A DNA stretch of 64,000 nucleotides from NCBI RefSeq assembly GCF_004010195.1, contig NC_057718.1:52346254-52410253 (forward strand). Reading direction: 5' to 3'. The notes beneath the pieces were generated by a model. That model was given only the letters and a program-made list of their open reading frames with translations, was not told the DNA's origin and did no database searches. Origin of the DNA: Chiloscyllium plagiosum. Lineage: Eukaryota. Position 1 is the first letter of the stretch. Each line of letters starts with the position of its first letter. Position numbers and translations under genes: made by a program. Positions 1 to 54,533 of this stretch are shown here, one piece after another.

Positions 1-125
1 GGGTGTGGGGGCGGGGTTAGGTCTGGGGGCGGGGACGGGGATCGGCGCGGGGGCGGGGTTGGGCGTGGTGATGGCGATAGGCGAAGGGGCGGGGTTAGAC
101 GTGGTGACGGAAATAGGCGTGGGCC
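1..125. repeat. GC/CpG-rich imperfect G-rich tandem repeat with four GGGGCGGGG boxes
   Basis: GGGGCGGGG at 8-16, 26-34, 50-58 and 86-94; many intact CpGs in an otherwise CpG-poor window; truncated by the window edge. Confidence 0.6.
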
Positions 126-1035
126 AAAGTCACTCAAAGGAGTGGGCCATGGTCAGTTCTGGAGTCTGTCCACTAAAAGACAAAGGGGGTAATCAGAGAA
201 GAAAATGGCTGCATCTACACCAGGAATGGCTGGAGTAGGTGCTTCATTCTGTGAGGGAGGGGTTTCAACTTCATTCATTGTGAGGCCCTTCAAACAGCAA
301 CAGCATGACACACAAACCCTCGACTGAAAGTGAAACACAGGACTGACACATACCTGCTTTGTGAATCTTAGGCATTAGACTTCTGTCTACAGTCTAATTC
401 CTTGCCCAAGCTCTCCCGACCACATCATGCCATAGAACAACTAAAGCCCACTAATTCCAGTGATGCAGTATGTATGTTATACTTCACGGAACGATGGAAT
501 ATAATTGCCAAAGTAGGAAATCACTTGCTATTATCCTGTAGCCTGGACATGATACAGGAGCCGCTCACTTTACATTGTGGACTATTGAACATTGTGTAGT
601 ACTAACGATGGGTGATCTCTGAATCTTCAGATGTTGTTGTTGTGGTTAGACAGAGATTCACATGCACAACTAATAATGACAAGTGCAGATGTATTCACAA
701 AAATATATTAACATTGAGATAGCACAGCATCACCTCTGTGGCATCAGAAGGTCTTCATCTTTCCTGCTCTCCCAATCTGTCTCAATGCATTCCTGAGTTC
801 TGCAGCTGGGATGGGGACAGCCTGCCCTTTGCTGGGGCTCGGTGGCTCGGTCAGGGGACCACCATGGCTTTTGGATTTCAAAAGGCCCAGGCATATTGAG
901 TGTGACTTGCTCCAAGAAAGGTCTACCTTCCTCAGCCTGAGCACCCATAGGACTGACGCTGGAGGTAGAAGGACCAGCCACTTCCGGAGTGTCATGGGAG
1001 GAGACTTCCGGAAGGCCTGTGTATGGTTCTTCCTC

Positions 1036-1171
1036 GACGAGAAAGTGGTTCCTGCAATGCTGGAGATTAGAGTCAAGATTAGAGTAGTGCTGGAAAAGCA
1101 CAGCAGGTCAGGCAGCATCCAAGGAGCAGGAAAATCGACATTTCGGACAAAAGCCCTTCATTAGGAATTCC
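1036..1171 (-). mobile_element. Short Penelope-derived element with degenerate hammerhead motif
   Basis: 11-bp TSD GGTTCTTCCTC (1025-1035 / 1172-1182); minus strand CTAATGA-A-GGGC-TTTT-GTCC-GAAAT-GTC. Confidence 0.8.
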
Positions 1172-1727
1172 GGTTCTTCCTCTGGCTGGGCGACTACTGG
1201 CCCAGTCCTGTCTCCATGTGAGGAAGGAGTACCTGCATTCCTGCATTGTGGTCAAGGTCCCTTACTGTTGGTGCTGAGCATGGATGACTAGGATGATGGA
1301 ATGCAAGTTTTGCCATTATCTAGTAGACTCAAACTGCTGGACCTGGCACTCCATGACAACTGCCAAACTGGCCATGAAGATAGTCAGCTGATTGCATGCC
1401 TGAGGCAGCATAGTGCCAAACCTTAGTGTCATGGTGCCCAGTGCCCTGGACAAACTTATCCCCTGTTCCTGTGTCTGCTTGTGAAATGCATGAAGTTCCT
1501 GATTGCTAACAACACTGGGTTCTCTCCTGTATGGAACTGAGTAGGTGTAGTTCTCCAAGTGCCAACAAACTGAGGGGTTTCTTCCTCAATCAGTTGCAGA
1601 GATGAGACAGTGAAGTGCTCACATGCAGGAGTCCCTGGCCCTAATCTAGATAACACTGAAATGCCAGGGTCTGAGCTGGTGGAGGATGCAGGAGGGCCAG
1701 CCTTGACAGTGTTCCACTGAGCAATCC

Positions 1728-2182
1728 GTTGCTAAGGTTTGGAGGATTTGAGCTATCGGAAGAGGCTGAACAGGCTGGGGCTGTTTTCCCTGGAACGTTG
1801 GAGGCTGAGGGGTGACCTCATAGAGGTTTATAAAATCATGAGGTCATGGATAGGATAAATAGACAGTCTTTTCCCTGGGGTGGGGGAGTCCAGAACTAGA
1901 GGACATAGGTTTAGAGTGAGAGGGGAAAGATATAAAAGAGACCTAAGGGGCAACCCTTTTTCAGAGGGTGGTGCGTGTTAGCAATAAGCTGCCAGAGGAA
2001 GTGGTGGAGGCTGGTACAATTGCAACATCTAAAAGGCACCTGGATGGGTGTATGAGTCGGAAGGGTTTGGAGGGATATGGGCCGGGTGCTGGCAGGTGGG
2101 ACTAGATTGGGTTGGGATATCTGGTTGGCATGGATGACTTGGACCAAAGGGTCTGTTTCTCTCTGTACGTCTCTCTGACTCG
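1728..2182 (+). mobile_element. CR1 (HER1-type) LINE 3' fragment
   Basis: Encodes LEDLSYRKRLNRLGLFSLERWRLRGDLIEVYKIM; 3' UTR ggaccaaagggtctgtttc and short tandem tail. Confidence 0.9.
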
Positions 2183-2395
2183 ATGATAGTCCTGTTCATA
2201 ATGACCACCATGAGCATTCAACCATTGCCTTCGAGAGACAAAAGAAAGAAAGTATCACAGGCCAAGGTTTAGAAGTTAGGAAATGTTAACAATGAATTTG
2301 CATTTGGTGGGAGAATGATCAATGCTTCTTACTTAATTTCCAGATCTCCACATGTCTGGTACCAGTCTTCACCTGCAAGGGCCAAGACCATCTTT

Positions 2396-2571
2396 GTAAG
2401 AGAGTGGAGGATCCGGAGGGAGGTCCGTTGCTGGAGGCTGCGGATTTGTTGAAGGGCCTGTGCCCGAAACGTCGAATGATTCCTGAAGAAGGGCCTGTGC
2501 CCGAAACGTCGAATCTCCTGTTCCCTGGATGCTGCCTGACCTGCTGTGCTGTTCCAGCAATAAAGTTTCAA
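2396..2571 (+). mobile_element. Short Penelope-derived element with partly duplicated hammerhead
   Basis: 14-bp TSD CCAAGACCATCTTT (2382-2395 / 2572-2585); body gatgctgcctgacctgctgtgctgttccagc; interrupts the Harbinger exon. Confidence 0.85.
2478..2515 (+). ncRNA. Minimal hammerhead ribozyme motif with intact core
   Basis: GATTC / CTGAAGA / A / GGGC-CTGT-GCCC / GAAAC / GTC / GAATC: stem I GATTC:GAATC, 4-bp stem II, palindromic ACGT stem III. Confidence 0.8.
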
Positions 2572-3941
2572 CCAAGACCATCTTTTCATGGTGGGTGAAG
2601 AGATGAATATCCCAGCTCCCATCCTGGCCCTGTTACAGACAGTTTTCTCCTGTAATGAGAGAAAAGGGAGGTACTGAGTAAGATGTAAGTGGGTGGCACA
2701 GCTGTTTAGTGCCAGTGCATTTGAGAAAAATCTGGTGAGTTGCCCTAAGTAAGTGAGCGAGTAGGCAATGCAGATGGCCAGCCGACTAATGGGTGCAAGG
2801 GAGGTAACAGCAAGTGAGAGAAGATGTCACATATAGGAGTGTGAGTGGTACAGCATTAGTCTTGAAGGAATGTGAGTGCCGAAGCAGCAAATGAGTGCAG
2901 GTGAGATTGCAGACAGCAATTCAGGGCATTTTCCCTGGTAAAGCAGAGAAGGCCAGTTACCTTCCTCCTGCTTTGTTAGATGTTTCCTTGGACCACATAG
3001 ACCACTCAGACCAGGTTGACAGAGTCTGGTGTCATAGGCTCCTCTGCTAATCATTAGGAAAGAGGATGCCTCTGCTTGACACCATCCTCAGGACCCCCAG
3101 GTCCAATCTCACAAAATAAGGTGCAAATTTCCCTTGTCCATCATGTCCAGGGCAAATATTGGCAAATAAACAGGGTAGCTCGAGACTGCCAACTTGTGAC
3201 AGGAAGTGCAACAGCCTGTTAAATGTGATGCTGACTAAGTTGGATTAGGGAGTAGTCCCTCATATTCAACTACACGTGTTTAAGAAAGGAGATTAGCAGA
3301 TTCCACACGACCCAAATTAGCAGGTCAGATACTAGGTGACTTTTATATACTGACTGATGTAACCATTTGTACACACAACATGAATCATGTACATGCATGG
3401 AATGGTCACACTCATAACATTTCTATCAAAGTGATTTGTGCTAGCCATACGGTAAATGAAGTGAGTAGATCCTGTGCAATTTTCTTTGAAGTTGAGGGTC
3501 CAGTAATACATAAAGCAGCTCAATATTATGGAGCTAAATTGGTGGTCAATGTAACATGCCACACCATTTATTTATTTTTATAATTCTGCATAAAAAATGG
3601 TATACAATTTATTGTTGATCCTAATCATAGCAAACAGAGATGAATGTTGCTCATAACTTTGGATATTATTTTGCTTAAACATAAATTGAAGCTAATTTGC
3701 AGAATGTCCTTAATTTGCAATTTGAAAAACTCTTATGTTATTACAGACAATACTAATTGTTAAAAATCATAATATATTAAAAATGTCAATGTATCTCTTT
3801 ATGTCTAAATGATTACGGTGAAGTTAGTTCATCTGCTATAATCAATCGAGTATACCTGGAATTTGATACGTAATTTATGAAATACAATTTAAACTTCATT
3901 TAAAATAATATGTTTTCTTTTGTCTCAATTACCCGTTACAA

Positions 3942-4249
3942 GGCGGCACAGTGGTTCAGTGCTGTCTCGCAGCACCATGGACCCGGGTTCGATTCCAGCC
4001 TCAGGGGACTGTCTGTGTGGAGTTTGCACACTCTCCCAGTGTCTGTGTGGGTTTCCTTCGGGTGCTCTGGTTTCCTCCCACAATCCAAAGACGTGCAGGT
4101 TAGGTGAACTGGCCAGGCTAAATTGCCCATAGTGTTAGTCAGGGGTAAATACCGGTTGGGGAATGGGTCTGGATGGGTTACTCTTTGGAGGGTCAGTATG
4201 GACTTGTTGGGCCGAAGGGCCTGTTTCCATACCGTAGGGAATCTAATCT
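3942..4249 (+). mobile_element. HE1-type tRNA-derived SINE
   Basis: A-box GGCACAGTGG, B-box GGTTCGATTCC (3986-3996), core tgtgtggagtttgcac...ggtttcctcccacaatccaaag, CR1-like tail gggccgaagggcctgtttcc. Confidence 0.9.
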
Positions 4250-4324
4250 CTGAGACCTATTCTGAGGCTTCCACCTATGTCTTGAAGATACATGAACTTG
4301 TGCATACATTTTATCTCATAGTAG

Positions 4325-7000
4325 TGTAAAGACCACGTCTTTGAAAAAAAAATGAATTAGATTACAAAATGTGAAAGGACTGCTTTATACTAAGGACTGT
4401 GGAAGGAGTTGCTGTATTTTTAAAAACAAGTTACTGGAATGCACTGTGAGTTGTGTTTACACTGCTACTTTGTTGAAGCAGTGGAGGAAGATGTCGAAGC
4501 TGCACAGTACAATTAATGGGCCTGCAGAGCAAGCTTCATCCAGAAACAATGTGCTGATTGATTTGTATAACCAGGACCAGTTGAGGAGGCCATGAGTTAT
4601 CAATATGACAACAAGCTTCTGATTGGCTCCTTGGCATGTGAACAGAATGTGTTCGGACTGAAAAAGAGACAAGGGTCTCTCTCCTTGTCTTTTCAGTGAA
4701 GTAAACAAAAACTGGAAATATTATCTACTCTCTCCCACATCTGCTGTAAGTTGTTGACTGAAAGGCTGAATAATTAATGTGTCAACTGGCCACATCTTTG
4801 CCAAAGAACTGACAGATTCTTGAATTAAGGAGATTAGAGCAGAAGATCTTGGAAGAAGCACAAAGGGCAACTCATTGAAAATTGTGGGCGAGCCTTATTG
4901 TTCTGTGTTTCCTTTTTTTAAAAAACAATTCATAACATCCAGGTTTGTTTGTCTCTTTCTATCTGCATGTATGTACCAGGGTTCAGAAGAGGCTTAGGAT
5001 TTCAACGAATGGAATTACATATTGATAATTTACAGTTTTGTTGATCTGTGGTAAGAAGTGATTTCTATTTAGTAAATAATACTTTTTTATAAAATACAGT
5101 GACCTGGGCATTGCTTTCTGTTAACTTGATTCCATCAGACAGAAAAAAAAGGGACTTTAATAATTTGATTAAACCGTTAACTTCTGTGATGATCCTAGGA
5201 AATATAGGACATGAGTGTTCATGACCCATATGGGTCATGACAAGAGACTGGGGGCTTGTCTGGGATTATTTTGAAAATTCTGCATCAAAGATTTGGGTGT
5301 GATATTTGGAGGTGGCACAGAAGTAAAGAAAATGCCACTTTTTCTTTCAACTACAAGAAGAAATGGCACAGGCAAGTGCTAGAGACTGTATGTAGATGAC
5401 AGAGTTGTCCTTGACAAACTTGAAAGAAATTACAGAAGTCAGGTTAACTGAATTGGCAACTGATTTGGGAATAGAAGGAGCAACAAAAGCAAGAAGGCAG
5501 AGATAATCAAAGGGGTAACACAGCATTTAGGTTTAGAAATACAAGAGAGACCAGATACTCAAGATATTGAAACATTAGAATCAATTAAACTTGAGTTACA
5601 GTTAAAACCACTTGAGCATGTGAAAAGAATGAAAAAGCTAGATAGAGTAGGAAGTTAAAAGGCAGGAAATGGAAATAAGAAAATGAGTATTAGAATTACA
5701 AAAGGAAAGAGAAAAGAAAAAGAAAAAAAATGAATAAAATATCGAGAAAAGACCCATTAGGTATTGACGAGTGCCGTACTGGGATGTATCCCACGATTTA
5801 AAGACACGAAAGAAATGTTTAAGCCTATGCAGGACTTTGAAAATTTGAGGCGAGGGACGTGGAGTCTTGCTTTATATCCTTTCAAAAAGGAGCATTGCAA
5901 ATGAATTGGCTAAAAACATACGAGAATTGCCCTATCAAAGCAAGTTGACAGGTGGAACACAGGTATATGCTTCACTGTCCAAAAAGGTTTCTTGGGGTTA
6001 TGAAACGGTGAAAACAATGTACACTGACTGCATAACAATTAGGGCCTGAAGCACATAGAGAAAGGCTTCAGAATTTAAAGTAACAGCCTGGCCAAACCTG
6101 TATTAAATTCCAGAGAGCTAAGCAAAGTAATGTTGACAGATGGATATGAAGTTGAAACTACATATGAAGTCCTTATACAAGTTCCCTTGGAAGAGTTTTA
6201 AATCTCACTATCTTCTGTTGGAAGAAACCACATTAAAGACCAAAATGTTGCAACTGCTAGTTGACAATCATAAGCTGATCCATAAATTTACCCATCATCC
6301 TCATAAATTCAAAAGTGGGAGAATGAAAGGAAGGCAAGTAGTGGTGTAAAGAATGGAATGCCCCAAATATCCTCCTCAGGTCAGAAAGGAAAGTGCTCAG
6401 GATGGAGGTAAGAAACAGAAGCTGAAGGATTTCCATTGTAAGAAAGGGCACACATTTAATAGGGGTGCTGGAAGTTGTGAGGGAAGCCCATGGCATTTAT
6501 TGGGATTTCTAAGATTGAATGTGAAAAGGAAACTCAAAAGAAAAATACCACAGATCAACTGATAACTTTAACTACAAATAAAAGATCAAATGTATACACT
6601 TCTATAAGAAATAGATGAGAGATAAAAAGGGTTTTTGTCGAAATCTACTTTCTCAATACAGCCAAGTTCATATCTATATTAAAGGATAAAGGCTACATAA
6701 AAATCTTTTGCTGGAGAAGGGCTTCATATTCCTCCAGAAAGTTCAAAGAAATTCCATGCAAGTCATAGTTTTATCTACAATTGGTGAAAATCTGAATCAG
6801 GCTGAAGAGACAGACCAGTTGCAAGAAGAAGTTCCAAGTATTTTTTCATCATTTATAGTAATCAGAGCAAAAGATTAACAAATTCCACTACCAGAGGTCA
6901 AAGTTATACCACAAGCAGATTTTAGGGTTGCTGAAACATCCTTCTCGACAGAAATGATTTGTTCCATCTATTTAACTAGTCAAATCCCAGAACAAAATAT
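4325..7000 (+). mobile_element. Decayed Gypsy (Gmr1-like) LTR retrotransposon: 5' LTR, PBS and gag remnant
   Basis: Probable LTR TGT...TGACA (about 4325-5242); PBS at 5249-5266; gag remnants QSKLTGGTQVYASLS..YETVK, PEAHRERLQNLK..PGQT, LEEFK and a decayed Zn-knuckle FHCKKGH near 6430; 3' boundary uncertain. Confidence 0.7.
5249..5266 (+). promoter_or_regulatory. tRNA-Pro primer-binding site
   Basis: TGGGGGCTTGTCTGGGAT versus TGGGGGCTCGTCCGGGAT (complement of the tRNA-Pro 3' end); both differences are CpG>TpG. Confidence 0.8.
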
Positions 7001-8635
7001 GGCTTGATAGAATTTATTTGCTGTGCTTTGTTAATTAAAGTGGTGGTTAGACTACACATTTTACTTGACAACAGATGTTTATTCCATTATAGAAAAAAGA
7101 AAAACAAACACTGTTATCTAGACAGAGAAGACAGCAAGATCTAAAACATAACAAAAAAAGATTCAACCTGGATTTTGCGAATTTATTTAAAGGACTCTCT
7201 TCTTTAAAATAAAATCCCTCATAGAAGTAACCCACACCACTTGTCTATAACTTGAAATATAAATTTCAAAACTGATATTATTAATTACAAAATCTGTGAT
7301 TAATGTGATAAATGATCATACTACAGCTCATTTTTCAAACTGGTCATGTCAAAATCTGGTAATAGCACAGATATGTCACTATCTTGAGAATATTTGTTCT
7401 TCAGCAACGTGAAAAGTAACTTTATGAATGTCTTGATATTTATTACCAAGCAACTCTGGCCAAATGGAAGACCTGCCAGAGAAATAAGGTTTCTTTTTGA
7501 CTATTTTGTTTTCTACAGCCACAGAATTGGTTAAAAATAGATCAGTCTTGACCATTCTTGAAAAGGAAAAAAAATGATCTTCTTAGAAGAACTTCCTTTC
7601 AAGAGAGGGACCTTCTTCCAGGGAGAGAAGTGGACAGAGATGAACCTACATGAAGAACACAGGGCTGGATACAGCACTAGCATTTGAAAAATACAAACAA
7701 TAAAAATATAGGAAAGTTATGAGTTATTGATTACTCAGGAATGGTTATGTGTATGTATTCAAGTGTTAAAGGAGAAAGAAAAAACTATTTTTTAGTCAAC
7801 CTGTAATTATCTATCTTATTATTACTTAAGACACTCCAGCAAAAGGAAAGAAAGAAATTTAATGATTCCATGATTTATGTAATTCGTAAGTGGGAAAGGC
7901 ATTCTTTGAATTCTGAAGTTTAATACAGAAAGTGATAGTGAGAATAGACATCAATTAAGTTAATAATTGATCATGTAATTAATTACTTAGTAATAATTGG
8001 AAATGCAGACTAACAAATCCTTGGGTCTTGATGGACTTCAAACTGGAATCTTAAAATGAGAAGTTAATGAGAACATGTGATACATTGGTTTTCATTTTCC
8101 AAGTTTTAAAGATTCAGGAATGTTCCATGAAATTGGAAAAGAGAAAACGTCACACCTATATTTACAAAGGGGGACAGAAAGCAGGAAACTGTGTCCAGTA
8201 AGCTGAACAACTTGTAAGTAAGATGTTAGAAGATATCATTAAAGACATTTTAGTAAAGCATTTAGAAAAATTCAAGGAAATGAGGTAGAATCAATATGGT
8301 TTGGTGAAAGGGAAATCATTTTTAACCAATTTATGGAGTTCTTTGAGGAGGGTCCATATATTGCAGATAAAAGGGGACCAGAAAATATCTTCCAGACTTC
8401 CAGAAGATTTTTGATAAGGGCCTTGTCAATTTTTAATTGCAGAAAATAATAACTCACAGTGTAGTGGGTAACATATTGACATAGAAAGAAGAATGACTAG
8501 CTAACAGGAAATGAAGTAGGCATAAATGGGTAACCTCCTAGTCAGGAAGAGATTACAAGTGGGTGCCACAGGGATCTCTGCCAACATGTCAATTTCGCAA
8601 AATTTATATAAATGAAGGACCGAAGGTTTGTTGTG

Positions 8636-8764
8636 GAGAAAGTGAGGATTGCAGATGCTGGAGATCAGAGTCGAACAGTGTGGAGCTGGAATAGCACAGC
8701 TGGTCAGGCAGATTCTGAGGAGCAGGAGTGTCATTGTTTCGAGCATAGGTTCTTCATTAGGAAT
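8636..8764 (-). mobile_element. Short Penelope-derived element with degenerate hammerhead
   Basis: 11-bp TSD GGTTTGTTGTG (8625-8635 / 8765-8775); gagaaagtgaggattgcagatgctggag...cttcattaggaat. Confidence 0.85.
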
Positions 8765-10576: not shown

Positions 10577-11572
10577 TTGCATGTTTTGAGATGATTTATA
10601 GCTCATGTTGAGGTTCTGGATGTAAGTTAGCTCATTGAGTTGGAAGGTTTATTTTCAGATGTTTCATCGCCATATTAGATAACATCCTCAGTGAGCCTCT
10701 GCTGAAGCACTGGTGTTAGTGACCTGCTTTTTATTTATGTGTTTAGGTTTCCTTGGGTTGGTGATGTAATTTCCTGTGGTGATGTCAGTTCTTGTTGAGA
10801 TGTAATTTTTAGTTCTTTTTTCTCAGTGGGTGGTAAATGGGGTCCAAGTCGATATATTTGTTGATAGAGTTCCAGTTGGAATGCCATGCTTCAATGAACA
10901 CAGTCCATCGATTTCTCAGCAACAAACCCAAACAAGCAGACAAAATGCATCCAGAAATCCTAGCCACTCTCCATTCCATCAAAGTCATCTCGGAAATGAC
11001 TGCTAGACTACTCAGACTTCTTGGCATTATGGTAGCCCAAACATCCACTAACACACCAAAACAGCAGCTAATGAAATTGAAGGACCCCACACAGACAACA
11101 AGCAAAACTAATGTCATTTACAACATATCTTGCAAGAACTGTAACAAACAGTACACTGGACAAGCAGGCAGAACACTAGCCACCAGGATACATGAACATC
11201 AAGTCGGCACAAAAAGACATGACCCACTCTCACTAGTATCCTTACATACAGATGGAGAAGGATACCACTTTGACTGGGACAACACATCCATCCTAGGACA
11301 AGCCAAACAGAGACATGCATGAGAATTCCTAGAAGCATGGCATTCCAACTGGAACTTTATCAACAAACACATTGACTTGGACCCCATTTACCACCCTCTG
11401 AGAAATAAGAACAGGCAATGACACCACCAACCCAAGGAAACCTAAACACATAAATAGAAAGCAGGTCACTAACACCAGTGCTTCACCGGAGGCTCACTGA
11501 TTATGTTACCTAGAATGGTGAGGAAAAATCTGAAAATGAACCTTCCAGCCCAGTGAGCAAACTTACATCCAG
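10577..11572 (+). mobile_element. 5'-truncated Penelope-like element with GIY-YIG remnant and inverted terminal copy
   Basis: ORF 10837-11322 NVIYNISCKNCNKQYTGQAGRTLATRIHEH...FDWDNTSILGQ; about 10615-10890 is an inverted copy of about 11325-11572; 12-bp TSD AGCTTTGAACAT (10565-10576 / 11573-11584); HHR-like CTGAGGA-T-GTTATC..GGCGAT-GAAAC-ATC on the minus strand near 10655-10695. Confidence 0.9.
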
Positions 11573-16960: not shown

Positions 16961-17850
16961 TATTTCCCTCCCCACCCCTATGTGCTTTCCGTAGGGACCG
17001 TTCACTCTGCGACTCCCTCATCAGTTCCACACTCCCCACTAACAGCTCCTCCAAACCTGGCACCTTTCCCTGCAACAACAGGAAGTGTAGCACTTGCTCC
17101 TACACCTTCCCTTTCACCTCCATCCAAGGCCCCAAACAATCATTTCAAATCTGGCAGGGATTCATCTGCACTTCTTCGACCTGATCTATTGCATCCGTTG
17201 CTCCTGATGTGGCCTCCTCTACATAGGAGAGACCATGAGCAAACTCAGGGATTGATTTATGGAGCACCTGCACTCTGTACGCTGCAATCAACAGCACCTT
17301 CTTGTTGCCAGCCATTTCAACTCCTCCTCCCATTCCCTTGGCAACATGTCTATTCTGAGCCTCCTCCATTGTCAAAATGAGGCCACATGCAAACTGGAGG
17401 AATGAGGCCTTATATTCCACCTCAGGAGCTGACAACCCAATGGCCTCAACTTAGAATTCCCCAGTTTCAAAATCTTCCCATGCCCAACCTTATCCCATGT
17501 CCACTCCTCCCTCTCCTCCTGCCTCTTTGACCTGACTAAACCTGTTCATCTTCCTTCTCACCTATCTATTCCATCTTCCCCAGTGACCAATCACAATAAC
17601 CCTCTATCTGCATCCACTTATTACCACCCACCTATCTTTCCCACATCCACCTATCACCATCCAACCTATCTTTCCCCCAGCCCCACCCCCTCTCTCTATT
17701 TCTGAGTTCCCTTTCCCCTCCGCAGTCCTGATGAAGGGTCCTGACCCAAAGAGTTGACTTTCCTGCTCCTCCAATGCTGTCTGACCTGTTGTGCTCTTCC
17801 AGTTTCACATTGTATTGACTCTGATTTCAGCACCTGCAGACCTTACTATG
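16960..17850 (+). mobile_element. Penelope-like element 3' fragment (GIY-YIG remnant, UTR, hammerhead remnant)
   Basis: PLCAFRRDRSLCDSL, GTFPCNNRKCSTC, LIYCIRCS*CGLLYIGET; C-rich UTR; AGTC-CTGATGA-A-GGGTC-CT-GACCC-AAAGAGTT-GACT at 17724-17759. Confidence 0.9.
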
Positions 17851-24609: not shown

Positions 24610-25496
24610 GTGAAGAAGGCATTTGGTATGCTTGCCATAATGGACAATAAGTGAGGATTGCAGATGCTAGAGATCAGACTCAGCAGTATGGTGCTGGAAA
24701 AGCACAGCAGGTCAGGCAGCACTCGAGGAGCAGGAGAATCAACATTTTAGGTATAAGACCTTCATCAGGAATTCTGATGAAGGACTTATGCCTGAAACAT
24801 CAATTCTGCTGCTCCTTGGATGCCACTTGACCTGCTGTGCTTTTCCAGCACCATACTCTTGACCCTTTATTGGGCAGTGCATTGAGTGTAGGTGTTGGGA
24901 GGTCATGTTGCAGCTGGACAGGACATTGGTTAGTTCACTTTTGGAATATTGAGTGCAGTTCTGGGCTCCCTGCTATAAGAAAAATGTTGTGAAACTTGAA
25001 CGGGTTCAGAAAAGATTTACACGGATGTTGCCAGGGTTGGAGGATTTAAGCTGTCGGGAGAGACTGAATAGACTGGGGCTACTTTCCCTAGAGTGTCAGA
25101 GGCTGAGGGGTGACCGTATTGAGGTTTATAAATCATGAGGGGTATGGAGAGAGTAAATAGGCAAAGTCCTTTTCCAAGGTTGGGGTAGTTGGGCCTAGAG
25201 GGCAAAGGTCGGAGGGGAAAAGCTTAAAAGGGATCTAAGGGACATCTTTTTAATGCAAAGGGTGGTGCATATATGGAATGAGCTGCCAGAGGAAGTGGTG
25301 GAGGCCGGTACAATTACAACATTTAAAAGGCATCTGGATGGGTATATGAATAGGAAGGGTTTGGAGCGATGTGAGCCAAATGCTGGCACATGGGTTTAGA
25401 TTTATTTCGGATATCCTTGGATAAGTTGGACTTGGATAAGTTGGACAGAAGGGTCTGTTTCAGTGCTGTCTATCTCTCTGACTCTGTGAACTCTAT
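24610..25496 (+). mobile_element. CR1 LINE 3' fragment
   Basis: VQFWAPCYKKNVVKLERVQKRFTRMLPGLEDLS...RLRGD.IEVYK; 3' UTR and tail; interrupted near 24637-24863. Confidence 0.9.
24649..24863. mobile_element. Palindromic head-to-head Penelope-derived element with two opposed hammerhead motifs
   Basis: Centre TCATCAG-GAATT-CTGATGA (24762-24780); perfect 30-bp outer arms 24685-24714 / 24828-24857. Confidence 0.85.
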
Positions 25497-26992: not shown

Positions 26993-27778
26993 ATGTTTTG
27001 TTGCATTTTATTCTGCAATGTCAATAAAGTACCAAACAAACTTTTTTTTCAGTAAGATAAAAGAATTTACATTTGCTCATATTAATATCAATATTAGAGA
27101 AAAAAAAAACCTCTCAAGTTCTATATAACACAAATATTGTTGTTTTCTGTCATTGCCAGTGATGACAGAACTGAGATCGGTATGGTGGCTCAGTGGTTAG
27201 CACTGCTGCCTCACTGCACCAGCGGCCTGGGTTTGATTCCTGCCTTGGGCCACTGACTGTGTAGAGTTTGCACATTGCTGGAGTCAATTATAAAGGATGA
27301 AATTACGACACATCTGGATAGCAGTAACAGGATAGGTCAGAGTCAGTATGGATTTATGAAGGGGAAATCATGCTTGACTAATCTTCTGGAATGTTTTGAG
27401 GATGTACCTCTGAAAATGGACAAGGAAGATCCAGTGGATGTAGTGTACCTGGACTTTCAGAAAGCCTTTGATAAAGTCCCACATAGGAGGTTAGTGAGCA
27501 AAATTATGGCACATGGTATTGGGGGCAAAATACTGACTTGGATTGAAAATTGGTTGGCTGACAGGAAACAAAGAGTAGTGATAAACGGCTCCCTTTCGGA
27601 ATGGCAGGCGGTGACCAGTGGGGTACCGTAGGGATCAGTGCTGGGACCGCAGTTTTTTACAATATACATTAACGATATAGATGATGGTATTAAAAGTAAT
27701 ATTAGCAAATTTGCTGATGATACAAAGCTGTGTGGCAGGGTGAAATGTGAGGCAGATGTTAAGAGATTACAGGGTGAC

Positions 27779-27811
27779 CTGATGAAGGGCTTTTGCCCGA
27801 AACGTCGATTT
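27779..27811 (+). ncRNA. Hammerhead catalytic core (intact core, native stem I 5' arm lost)
   Basis: CTGATGA-A-GGGC-TTTT-GCCC-GAAAC-GTC-GATTT. Confidence 0.7.
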
Positions 27812-27903
27812 CGAAGCTCCTTGGATGCTGCCTGAACTGCTGTGCTCTTCCAGCACCACTAATCCAGAATCTGGTTTCCAGCATCTGCAGTCATTGTTTT
27901 TAC
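27782..27903 (+). mobile_element. Short Penelope-derived hammerhead element inserted in CR1 RT
   Basis: 12-bp TSD CAGGGTGACCTG (27770-27781 / 27904-27915). Confidence 0.9.
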
Positions 27904-42524: not shown

Positions 42525-44975
42525 TTTTTTATTCATTCATGGGAAATGGGTTTCACCCACATTTATTGCTTATCCCTAGTTGTCCTTGAGATGGTAGTAA
42601 TAAGCTGCCTTTTTGAACCGCTGAAGTAATGTGTCATAGGTAGTTACACAATGCTGTCAAGGAGGTAACTCCAGGGTTACGACCCAGCGGCAGTAAAGGA
42701 ATGGTGTTATCTTTCAAGTCAGGATGGTGAGGGGCTTGGAGGAGAATTTGCAGGTAGTGGTGTTCCCAGGTATCTGCTGCCCTTGCTCTTGTGGGATTGG
42801 AAGATGCTGTCCATGGATCTTTGGTGAATTGCTGCAGTGCATCTTGTAGATAGTACACACTGGTGGAGTGATGGAATGTAGGCTTAGTGCCAATTAAATT
42901 AGTTGCTTTGTCCTAGACGGTATTAAGCTTCTTAAGTGTTGGAGCTGCACACATTCAGGCAAGTGGAAAGTATTTCAAGACACTCCTGACTTGTGGCTTG
43001 TAGATGGTGGACAGACTTTGGAGAGCAGTGTTCTTAGCCTCTGACATGCTCTTGTAGCTACTATATTGTTATGATCAGCCTAGTTAAGTTTCTAACCAAT
43101 GGTAACTTCCAGAATGTTGGGATTCAGTGATGATAAGCTGAAAATGTGTTGCTGGAAAAGCGCAGCAGGTCAGGCAGCATCCAAGAAGCAGGAGAATCGA
43201 CGTTTTGGGCATGAGCCCTTCTTCAGGAGCCCTTCCTTCTTCTATTCAGTAATGATAATACCATTGAATGTCAGGACAGTGGTAAGATTGTCATTTAATT
43301 GAGATAGTCATTGCCTGGCATTTGTATGGCACAAAGAGTACTTGCTACGTTTCAGCCCAAGCCTGGATATTTTCCAGATCTTGTTGAATTTTGACACAAC
43401 TGCTTCAGTATCTGAGGAGTCGCAAATGGTGTTGAACATTGTGCAATCATCGGCGAATATCCCACTTCTGACCTTATGATGGAGGGAAGGCCCATGAAGG
43501 GAAGAAGATTGAAGAAGCAGCTGAAGATGATTGGGCCTGGGATATTATCCTGAGGAACTCGTGTGGAGATGTGCTGGAGCCTTGCTAACTGATCAACTAT
43601 GAACGTCTCTATTTGTACCAGGTATGATTCCTAGCAGCAGAGTACTTTTTTCACCTAACTGCTATTGAGTCTAGTTTTGCTAGGGCTCCTTGATGCCATA
43701 CTCAGCCAAATGCAGCCTTGATTTCAAGGACTGTCAGTCTAACCTGCTCCCTGGAATACAGCTCTTTTATCCATGTTTGAACTAAATCCATAATAAGGTC
43801 AGGAACTGAGTGGCCCTATCAGAACACATACTGGACATAATCAGCAGGTTCCTGCTTGATCGCACTGTGAATGACACCTTCCATTACTTTACTGATGATC
43901 GAGAATAGACTGGGATGCAGGTAATTGGCCAGGTTGGGTTTGTCTCATTTTCTTTTGTATTTAGGACATACCTGGGCAATTTTCCACATTGTCAGGTAGA
44001 TGCCGGTATAGTACTGGAACAGCTTGGCAAGGGGACCGTCAAGTTCTGGAACACAAGTCTTCAGTACTATTGCTGGAATATTCTCAGGGCCCAAAGCTTT
44101 TGCAGTATCCAGTACTTCCAATTGTTTATTGATGTCATATGGAGTGAATCAAAGTGGCTGAACACTGATATCTGTGATAGAGGAGGCTGAGATAGATCAA
44201 CAACTCAGCACTTCTCGCTAAAGATTGTTGTAAGTGTTTCAGCCATTTTATTCCCCAATGACGTGCTGGGTGGTCCCATTATGGAGGATGCGGATATTTG
44301 TGGAGGCTCCTCCTCCAATGAGTTGTTTAATTATCACCACCATTCACATGACTGCAGAACTTCAATCTGATCCAGTGATTGTGGGCTCGCTTAGCTCTGG
44401 ATATCACTTGCTGCTTATGCTGTTTGGCATGCAAGTAGTTTGGTTTGGTAGCTTTGCCAGGTTTTTCAATATTTTTAGGTATGCCTGGTGTTGCTCAGGC
44501 AGATCCTCCTGTACTCCTCACTGAACCAGGATTAATCCCCTGGCTTGATGTTACTGGTTAAATGGAGGAAATGCCAAGCTGCGAGGCTGCAGATTGTGTT
44601 GGAATATGCCTAATGGATGCCCAGTCTTGAGTTTCGAGATCTGTTCAAAGTCTGTCCTATTTAAGACAATGATAGTGCCACATAACGCCATGTAAGGTTT
44701 CTCAAAGTAAAAGGAGGAATTTGCCTCCAGAAGTATGATGCAGTGGTCACTCTTACTGACACTGTCATGGACAAATGCCAGATTGGTGGGGATCTGATCA
44801 AGTACATTGATCAAGTTCCATCACCACGTGCTACAGACCCTGTCTAACAGCTCTGTTCTTTGTGACCCGACCTGGTAGATCAATAATGTTGCTGCCACGC
44901 CCCTCATAGATGTTGAAATCCCCCATCCAGAGTACATTCCGTGCCCTTGCTACCCTCAGCGCTTCCTCCAAGTAC
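42525..44975 (-). mobile_element. Second non-LTR LINE family, long decayed copy (APE endonuclease, RT, 3' UTR)
   Basis: Endonuclease motifs NVLWMGDFNI (near 44920) and SKSDHC (near 44750); RT LPSIIRSEVG.FADDCTMF (about 43435-43490); 3' UTR ends atgaatgaataaaaaa; clade not determined. Confidence 0.85.
43137..43243 (-). mobile_element. Short Penelope-derived hammerhead element
   Basis: 15-bp TSD ATTCAGT(G/A)ATGATAA (43122-43136 / 43244-43258); minus strand CTGAAGA-A-GGGC-TCAT-GCCC-AAAAC-GTC-GATTC. Confidence 0.85.
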
Positions 44976-54388: not shown

Positions 54389-54533
54389 GAAAGTGAGGAC
54401 TGCAGATGCTGGAGATCAGAGCTGAAAATGTGTTGCTCAATTCCTGAAGAAGGGCTTATGCCCGAAATGTCAATTCTCCTGCTCCTTGGATGCTGCCTGA
54501 CCTGCTGCGCTTTTCCAGCAACACATTTTCAGC
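54389..54533 (+). mobile_element. Short Penelope-derived hammerhead element with 5' inversion
   Basis: 14-bp TSD TATTCCCT(G/C)GGGTT (54375-54388 / 54534-54547); 18-bp inverted repeat 54420-54437 / 54517-54534; CTGAAGA-A-GGGC-TTAT-GCCC-GAAAT-GTC at 54444-54471. Confidence 0.85.

What the first reader, a model, noticed from the sequence alone, without database searches (positions are those of the whole stretch)
2451..2515. 27-nt duplication may convert a dimer-dependent hammerhead into a self-contained permuted ribozyme
Seen: GAAGGGCCTGTGCCCGAAACGTCGAAT occurs twice, identically (2451-2477 and 2488-2514). This allows an alternative fold: stem III ACGT(2469-2472):ACGT(2506-2509), cleavage after C2473 (GUC), stem I GAA(2474-2476):TTC(2480-2482) closed by a TGA loop, core CTGAAGA (2483-2489), stem II GGGC:GCCC and GAAA (2503-2506). 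Known: minimal PLE hammerheads cannot form a stable stem III as monomers and are thought to work as dimers. Inference: this insertion supplies its own partner strand in a type III-like topology. All CpGs are intact, so the copy is probably young. The 3-bp stem I is marginal.
Basis: partly seen in the sequence, partly recalled or inferred. Interest (0 to 1): 0.7.

Follow-up and report, generated by a model that had tools for sequence, protein, structure and literature searches.

The report
Hammerhead stutter in Penelope insertion
A 27-base repeat inside a young 176-base insertion of a Penelope-type jumping gene lets a self-cutting RNA motif be drawn on one strand, but similar repeats recur at many other copies in this genome and the fold is predicted to be unfavourable, so it is likely a copying slip rather than a working ribozyme.

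Summary
It lies in a 176-bp Penelope-like (PLE) insertion (2396-2571) with a 14-nt target-site duplication, made of an antisense ORF scrap, the extra half-hammerhead and a short pLTR. It is not special: 236 junctions of this kind occur among 58,348 intact-motif matches. Of 54 young-subfamily loci, 23 allow the same cis fold, 19 end before the cleavage site, and the largest array (79 units) lacks GUC. Full-length elements lack the arrangement, and no daughter copy was found. The proposed fold is half of the known double hammerhead. It lies 4.3 kcal/mol above the normal monomer and 5-8 above the ensemble, ranking 16th of 21 sister loci. In its favour, it is predicted no rarer than a trans dimer at micromolar RNA. 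Cleavage and transcription are untested, and reads confirm both insertion ends but not the internal junction. The scan reported a similar case before on other DNA (e1-9822277). Side lead: duplication ends cluster at the helix I strand (22 of 54). Verdict: likely a template-jump by-product.

The parts
2382..2395 (+). left target-site duplication (14 nt)
   Evidence: exact repeat at 2572-2585; 28 of 30 sister loci have TSDs of 12-18 nt
2396..2401 (.). 6-nt filler, not assigned to the element
   Evidence: does not match the element ORF next to the antisense piece
2402..2451 (-). antisense piece of the PLE ORF N-terminal region, starting about 409 nt downstream of the element's 5' end
   Evidence: exact match to full-length copy L097 over this stretch; offset measured in L084 and L092; related loci
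2451..2477 (+). extra 3' half of the hammerhead (helix II, GAAA, ACGT, C17 = 2473, GAAT), without the CTGAAGA core
   Evidence: sequence
2478..2478 (+). junction G; full-length elements have C here
   Evidence: 13 of 17 loci with a downstream hammerhead have CATTC
2478..2515 (+). minimal type I PLE hammerhead motif: helix I 2478-2482/2511-2515, core 2483-2489, extra A2490, helix II 2491-2502, GAAA 2503-2506, palindromic ACGT, C17 = 2510
   Evidence: MFE fold -10.0 kcal/mol; layout matches the min-HHR description in PMC4209133; no Rfam hit
   Evidence: can be drawn; -12.3 against -16.6 kcal/mol for the normal fold on 2451-2515
2479..2571 (+). short pLTR copy of the young subfamily, ending at the nearer of two common 3' ends
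   Evidence: two 3' ends at about +98 and +134 in sister loci; 17,050 exact matches of 2515-2558
2572..2585 (+). right target-site duplication (14 nt)

Best explanation
The repeat sits inside one young 176-bp Penelope-like insertion and was likely made by a reverse-transcriptase template jump during integration, leaving an accidental half of a double hammerhead that is predicted to fold rarely and likely has no function. Shown: insertion bounds and TSD, the identity of each piece, the parent element (about 4 kb, RT and GIY-YIG matches, hammerhead at the 5' end of each pLTR), and the recurrence of such junctions. Inferred: one cDNA started near 2571, copied to the RNA 5' end at 2479, jumped back to the helix I 3' strand (four bases past the cleavage site) and copied 27 more bases. 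It was then joined, probably through a 1-2 nt overlap at 2450-2451, to a second cDNA primed on the other strand from inside the ORF. Predicted: a transcript would mostly form the normal monomer fold (helix I 2478-2482/2511-2515), which lacks helix III, so cleavage at C2473 would be slow and need high Mg2+ or the element's protein.
For: TSD and three-part anatomy. Parent is a PLE: GIY-YIG at or above Pfam's cut-off in 2 of 3 pieces, RVT_1 below cut-off in 2 of 10 pieces, hammerhead-bearing pLTR downstream in 17 of 19 loci. 236 junctions of this type against 58,348 intact-motif matches, controls 0. In 54 young-subfamily loci the upstream copy ends anywhere from -8 to +20 of the cleavage site: 19 end before it and 23 allow the same cis fold. 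The largest array (79 units of 36 nt) lacks GUC. The one other exact junction (L001) belongs to another subfamily with other flanks, so it is an independent event. Only this locus matches all 176 bases among 60 matches. Cis fold 5.2-7.8 kcal/mol above the ensemble in four contexts that hold both folds. Rank 17 of 17 and 16 of 21 among sister junctions. Inverted and rearranged pLTR structures with TSDs are described for PLEs (PMC3846280).
Against: Nearest-neighbour energies ignore Mg2+, core tertiary contacts and protein. The natural trans dimer is also predicted unfavourable: +1.1 kcal/mol at 1 M, a fraction of about 3e-7 at 1 uM, against 5e-6 to 9e-4 for the cis fold. In the shortest context (2465-2512) the cis fold is only 3.6 kcal/mol up. 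A PLE hammerhead from Anolis cleaves when protein is added (PMC11167929), so poor folding alone does not exclude activity. The template jump is inferred from sequence only. Reads did not bridge the internal junctions. Transcription was not tested.
Confidence: 0.8

Rival explanations
1. One reading: the duplication makes a working, concentration-independent hammerhead that cuts at C2473 in transcripts through this locus.
For: All core bases are intact and the helix III is the same 4-bp ACGU/ACGU helix as in the natural dimer (sequence). The cis fold is predicted more populated than a trans dimer at micromolar RNA. PMC4209133 saw some cleavage when a helix III was engineered into a single motif. 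The antisense piece can pair with 2510-2516 and extend the cis fold.
Against: Helix I has only 3 bp with a 3-nt loop, and that hairpin is net unstable (+2.6 kcal/mol from the loop terms). It competes with a 5-bp helix I that has pairing probability 0.75-0.8 in the 176- and 301-nt contexts. The engineered constructs in PMC4209133 cleaved mostly at non-physiological Mg2+. No sign of selection or amplification.
Confidence: 0.12
2. The repeat arose after insertion by DNA-level slippage or repair, not during reverse transcription.
For: Arrays of up to 79 identical units probably grew at the DNA level. Short overlaps occur at some junctions.
Against: Here the copies are not a plain tandem unit: the upstream copy sits at the joint between the antisense ORF piece and the 5' end of the pLTR, where 44 of 99 young copies begin. 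The junction base differs from the native one.
Confidence: 0.05
3. The duplication is an assembly error.
For: No listed contig bridges the internal junctions.
Against: Both ends of the insertion are present in an independent sample (X4). The junction class recurs at many loci with varied linkers. The copies are separated by 10 element-derived bases.
Confidence: 0.03

Closest known systems
Minimal type I hammerheads (min-HHR) of metazoan Penelope-like elements and their dimer fold (Cervera and De la Pena 2014, PMC4209133)
   Same: Short helix I, extra base before helix II, G10.1-C11.1 pair, palindromic 15.2-16.2, location in the pLTR.
   Different: Here the partner strand lies 37 nt upstream and lacks its own core, and helix I is cut to 3 bp with a 3-nt loop.
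Poseidon-type PLE of Anolis (Frangieh et al. 2024, PMC11167929)
   Same: Hammerhead at the pLTR-ORF start; two adjacent 3' ends (tail); uncleaved RNA as template (0 of 99 young copies start at position 0 or +1).
   Different: The main text read does not describe short reiterations of the hammerhead at the 5' end. Clade assignment of this element was not tested.
Insertion units of endonuclease-bearing PLEs (Arkhipova et al. 2013, PMC3846280)
   Same: pLTR with an adjacent inverted piece, TSD, optional tail, palindromes at the inverted junction.
   Different: Here the inverted piece is an ORF scrap and a 27-nt direct repeat sits at the joint.
Non-LTR retrozymes (bioRxiv 10.64898/2026.07.22.740005)
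   Same: Tandem hammerhead copies derived from PLE pLTRs.
   Different: Their units are 51-972 bp, each with a complete motif. This locus has one and a half motifs, and sister arrays have 36-51-nt units.
Type III hammerheads of plant satellite RNAs, viroids and LTR retrozymes (review PMC6155905)
   Same: Topology of the drawn fold: open helix III, closed helices I and II.
   Different: Those cleave efficiently as monomers using loop-loop contacts. Here helix I is 3 bp, the fold is not the predicted ground state, and Rfam gives no match.

Membership tests
Penelope-like element insertion | parent ORF with GIY-YIG endonuclease | tested here: met
   PF01541 at 22.8 and 24.5 bits (cut-off 22.6) in L107 and L100; 17.9 in L108
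Penelope-like element insertion | parent ORF with reverse transcriptase | tested here: inconclusive
   RVT_1 E 0.00025, 21.2 bits, below cut-off 29.6, in 2 of 10 stop-to-stop pieces
Penelope-like element insertion | pLTR with hammerhead, inverted pieces, tail and TSD | tested here: met
   14-nt TSD here
PLE minimal type I hammerhead | core CUGAnGA/GAAA, extra base after A9, G10.1-C11.1, palindromic helix III positions, 4-5 bp helix I | tested here: met
   sequence 2478-2515 compared with the text of PMC4209133
PLE minimal type I hammerhead | self-cleavage as a dimer or with protein | not testable with these tools
   needs an in vitro assay
Type III hammerhead (monomeric) | topology with closed helices I and II and complete core | tested here: met
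   drawable on 2469-2509
Type III hammerhead (monomeric) | active fold is the favoured fold | tested here: not met
   3.6-7.8 kcal/mol above the ensemble in five contexts
Type III hammerhead (monomeric) | match to an Rfam hammerhead model | tested here: not met
   0 matches at E <= 1 in window 1-8000; the normal minimal motif is missed too, so the test is weak
Type III hammerhead (monomeric) | loop I-loop II tertiary contact and fast cleavage at low Mg2+ | not testable with these tools
   helix I of 3 bp against helix II of 4 bp; no assay possible
Non-LTR retrozyme | at least two consecutive units, each with a complete hammerhead | tested here: not met
   the upstream copy lacks the CTGAAGA core
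Non-LTR retrozyme | circular RNA product | not tested
   no RNA reads laid on the locus

The most novel reading that the evidence does not exclude
When the Penelope reverse transcriptase reaches the RNA 5' end it hops across hammerhead helix I onto the paired strand, possibly that of a partner RNA in the hammerhead dimer. This would repeatedly write 36-51-nt tandem hammerheads into the genome. The cluster of junctions at +3 to +6 (22 of 54 loci; about 7 expected if spread evenly over 29 positions) would be a genomic footprint of the folded ribozyme in the integration complex, and some products (this locus weakly; L256, L232, L323 and L252 better) would be cis-cleaving half or double hammerheads and seeds of very small retrozyme arrays.
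Probability: 0.2. Interest if true: 0.6.

Novelty: new variant of a known kind. Interest (0 to 1): 0.22.

Why it matters
For this locus, little: it is one young insertion among tens of thousands and shows no sign of selection. The class matters somewhat more. PLE hammerheads have been proposed to work as dimers, but in-vivo evidence is lacking in the papers read (PMC4209133, PMC11167929). Natural cis half-dimers and 2-4-unit arrays are ready-made constructs for testing the dimer model without engineering. The junction positions also bear on how the PLE enzyme ends and jumps, and on how tandem retrozymes start.

Tried and rejected
(1) That the permuted form is native to the element: rejected; none of 17 loci with a downstream hammerhead has a GTC site upstream, and 13 have a pyrimidine-rich run ending in CATTC. 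(2) That GAATG marks a cleavage-generated RNA 5' end: rejected; 24 of 30 loci with that start are centres of head-to-head pairs, where GAATG is the reverse complement of CATTC. (3) That G2478 is a copied cap: no G excess before ATTCC (A 6, T 5, G 5 of 16). (4) That cleaved RNA is the usual template: 0 of 99 young copies start at position 0 or +1, while 44 start at -33 to -29. (5) Rfam: no match. (6) Expression: no RNA holder listed; the one raw RNA run laid (X21, about 2 in 100 of it read) gave 0 reads, which is no test. (7) Host gene: Pfam on 49 of 167 listed frames (those of about 100 aa or more) found only RVT_1 and a weak GIY-YIG; short exons would be missed, so the gene context is unknown. 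(8) Polymorphism: X6 and X9 lack cover of the left flank, which proves nothing. (9) Literature: searches returned no paper whose title or abstract start describes 5'-end hammerhead reiteration in PLE insertions, and none of the passages read does. Most subscription journals and all supplements were not seen.

Full report
Observation. Rfam finds nothing in 1-8000 at E <= 1. The region 2451-2515 folds no better than shuffles (z -0.89), and its MFE is the normal monomer with a 5-bp helix I.

Anatomy. A 14-nt direct repeat at 2382-2395 and 2572-2585 bounds a 176-bp insertion. Inside it are 6 unassigned bases, then 2402-2451, the reverse complement of a stretch of the element's ORF about 409 nt from its 5' end. 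The extra half-hammerhead follows, then one G, then a short pLTR (2479-2571). The genome is 3.56 Gb; earlier scan notes call it shark-like, which I did not test. Long copies of the element span about 4 kb and end in a second hammerhead-bearing repeat in 17 of 19 loci fetched. Pieces next to that repeat match GIY-YIG at or above Pfam's cut-off in 2 of 3 cases, and an RT match is present but below cut-off in 2 of 10 pieces. With the pLTR, the inverted pairs, the two alternative 3' ends and TSDs of 12-18 nt in 28 of 30 sister loci, this fits a Penelope-like element as described in PMC3846280 and PMC11167929. The copy is young: 2515-2558 has 17,050 exact matches.

Is the arrangement native or special? 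No. In long elements the base before ATTCC is C at the end of a pyrimidine-rich run (13 of 17), and none has a GTC site upstream. The exact junction occurs twice in the genome; the second, L001, has another loop II, another downstream sequence and other flanks, so it is a separate event. Only this locus matches all 176 bases among 60 matches from 40 scored of 513 candidates. A looser pattern (hammerhead 3' half, 0-14 bases, element 5' end) has 236 matches against 58,348 for the intact motif, with 0 in the reversed controls. Both are exact-match counts and lower bounds. I examined 97 of the first 100 listed junctions of the 236: 17 had an intact core and a possible helix I of 3 bp or more. For the young subfamily, 164 matches were found and the first 100 listed. 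These collapse to 54 loci after dropping four rows from the same loci and counting each array once. The upstream copy ends before the cleavage site in 19, exactly at it in 3, and at +3 to +6 in 22. Thirty-two have a complete core in the upstream copy too, and seven are arrays; the largest has 79 units of 36 nt that lack GUC. The junctions therefore form, and one even expanded, whether or not a cleavable site results.

Folding. The proposed fold is one half of the double hammerhead: the same 4-bp ACGU/ACGU helix III, but with helix I reduced to 3 bp and a 3-nt loop. On 2451-2515 it scores -12.3 kcal/mol against -16.6 for the normal monomer. With constraints it lies 3.6 (2465-2512), 5.2, 7.5, 7.8 and 7.2 kcal/mol above the ensemble as flanks are added, while the 5-bp helix I reaches pairing probabilities of 0.75-0.8 in the two longest contexts. 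Among sister junctions it ranks 17 of 17 and 16 of 21 (30-nt flanks). Against my reading: the natural trans dimer is also predicted unfavourable, +1.1 kcal/mol at 1 M, a fraction near 3e-7 at 1 uM, below the 5e-6 to 9e-4 of the cis fold. These energies ignore Mg2+, tertiary contacts and protein. PMC4209133 found no cleavage of a single min-HHR, low cleavage of dimers, and cleavage of a helix-III mimic mostly at non-physiological Mg2+. PMC11167929 found cleavage only with the element's protein, no need for cleavage in insertion, and no RNA-seq ends at the site. Weak in-vitro cleavage at C2473 is thus possible, but an efficient monomer is unlikely.

Mechanism (inferred). In 99 of the first 100 listed young copies, 44 begin at -33 to -29 relative to the cleavage site (the 5' strand of helix I), 21 run on into native upstream sequence, and none begins at 0 or +1. 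Templates are therefore likely uncleaved RNAs that start at helix I. Many insertions join two oppositely oriented cDNAs (24 of 30 are head-to-head pairs). Here one cDNA likely ran from 2571 to the RNA 5' end, jumped back to four bases past the cleavage site, copied 27 bases, and met a second cDNA begun inside the ORF. The cluster of jump sites at +3 to +6 suggests a hop across helix I. However, I measured ends by maximal extension, and short overlaps with the native upstream bases are present in 5 of the 10 loci at +5, so microhomology may explain part of the cluster.

Reads. Contigs from X1 and from X4 (another sample and study) cover both ends of the insertion, and X6 covers the right end. 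No listed piece bridges the internal junctions, so the duplication rests on the assembly. Expression and host-gene context remain unknown.

Literature seen. PMC4209133: parts 1-2 of 4 (abstract, results, discussion, start of methods). PMC11167929: parts 1-2 of 4 (main text, start of methods). bioRxiv 10.64898/2026.07.22.740005: part 1 of 5 plus passages. PMC3846280 and PMC6155905: passages only. No supplements were read; the cleavage gels of PMC4209133 are in its supplement. Searches showed no description of this 5'-end reiteration, within the limits of that library.

Verdict. Real feature in a known kind of element; likely a recurrent integration by-product with a drawable but disfavoured cis hammerhead fold. 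Interest 0.22. The wider pattern of jump sites is the more interesting lead.

Noticed in passing
L343:472-3320 (G000:C28:11848971 onward): Array of 79 units of 36 nt made of the hammerhead 5' part with the GUC site lost, ending in one complete pLTR: a minisatellite born from the element's 5' end.
   Followed up: partly
L176 (G000:C7:77962980-77963150), L323, L324: Arrays of 2-4 junctions with 37-41-nt units, each with a complete core and GUC; L176 has a 14-nt TSD. Candidates for cis double hammerheads, shorter than the 51-bp minimum unit reported for retrozymes.
   Followed up: partly
L005/L251, L190, L147, L329, L297, L299: Short A runs directly after the cleavage-site bases at the jump junction; could be oligoadenylated short RNAs used as acceptors, or untemplated additions.
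   Followed up: no
window 2450-2456; L001, L004, L005, L121, L176: The upstream copy often begins TGAAGGG, which looks like a 3-nt slip within the GAAGAAG of the core or a joint at that place.
   Followed up: no
window 24692-24850: Older head-to-head pair of the same repeat family; further copies at about 1085-1168, 8685-8764, 17726-17802, 27778-27855, 43139-43228 and 54440-54531.
   Followed up: no
window 27257-27631 (+) and 10837-11322 (+): RVT_1 match (E 1e-12) just upstream of a hammerhead copy at 27778, and a weak GIY-YIG match: other retroelement remnants.
   Followed up: no
L094, L097, L301: A deleted or diverged variant of the long element with a different 3' region before the young pLTR, shared by at least three loci; possibly a non-autonomous subfamily.
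   Followed up: no
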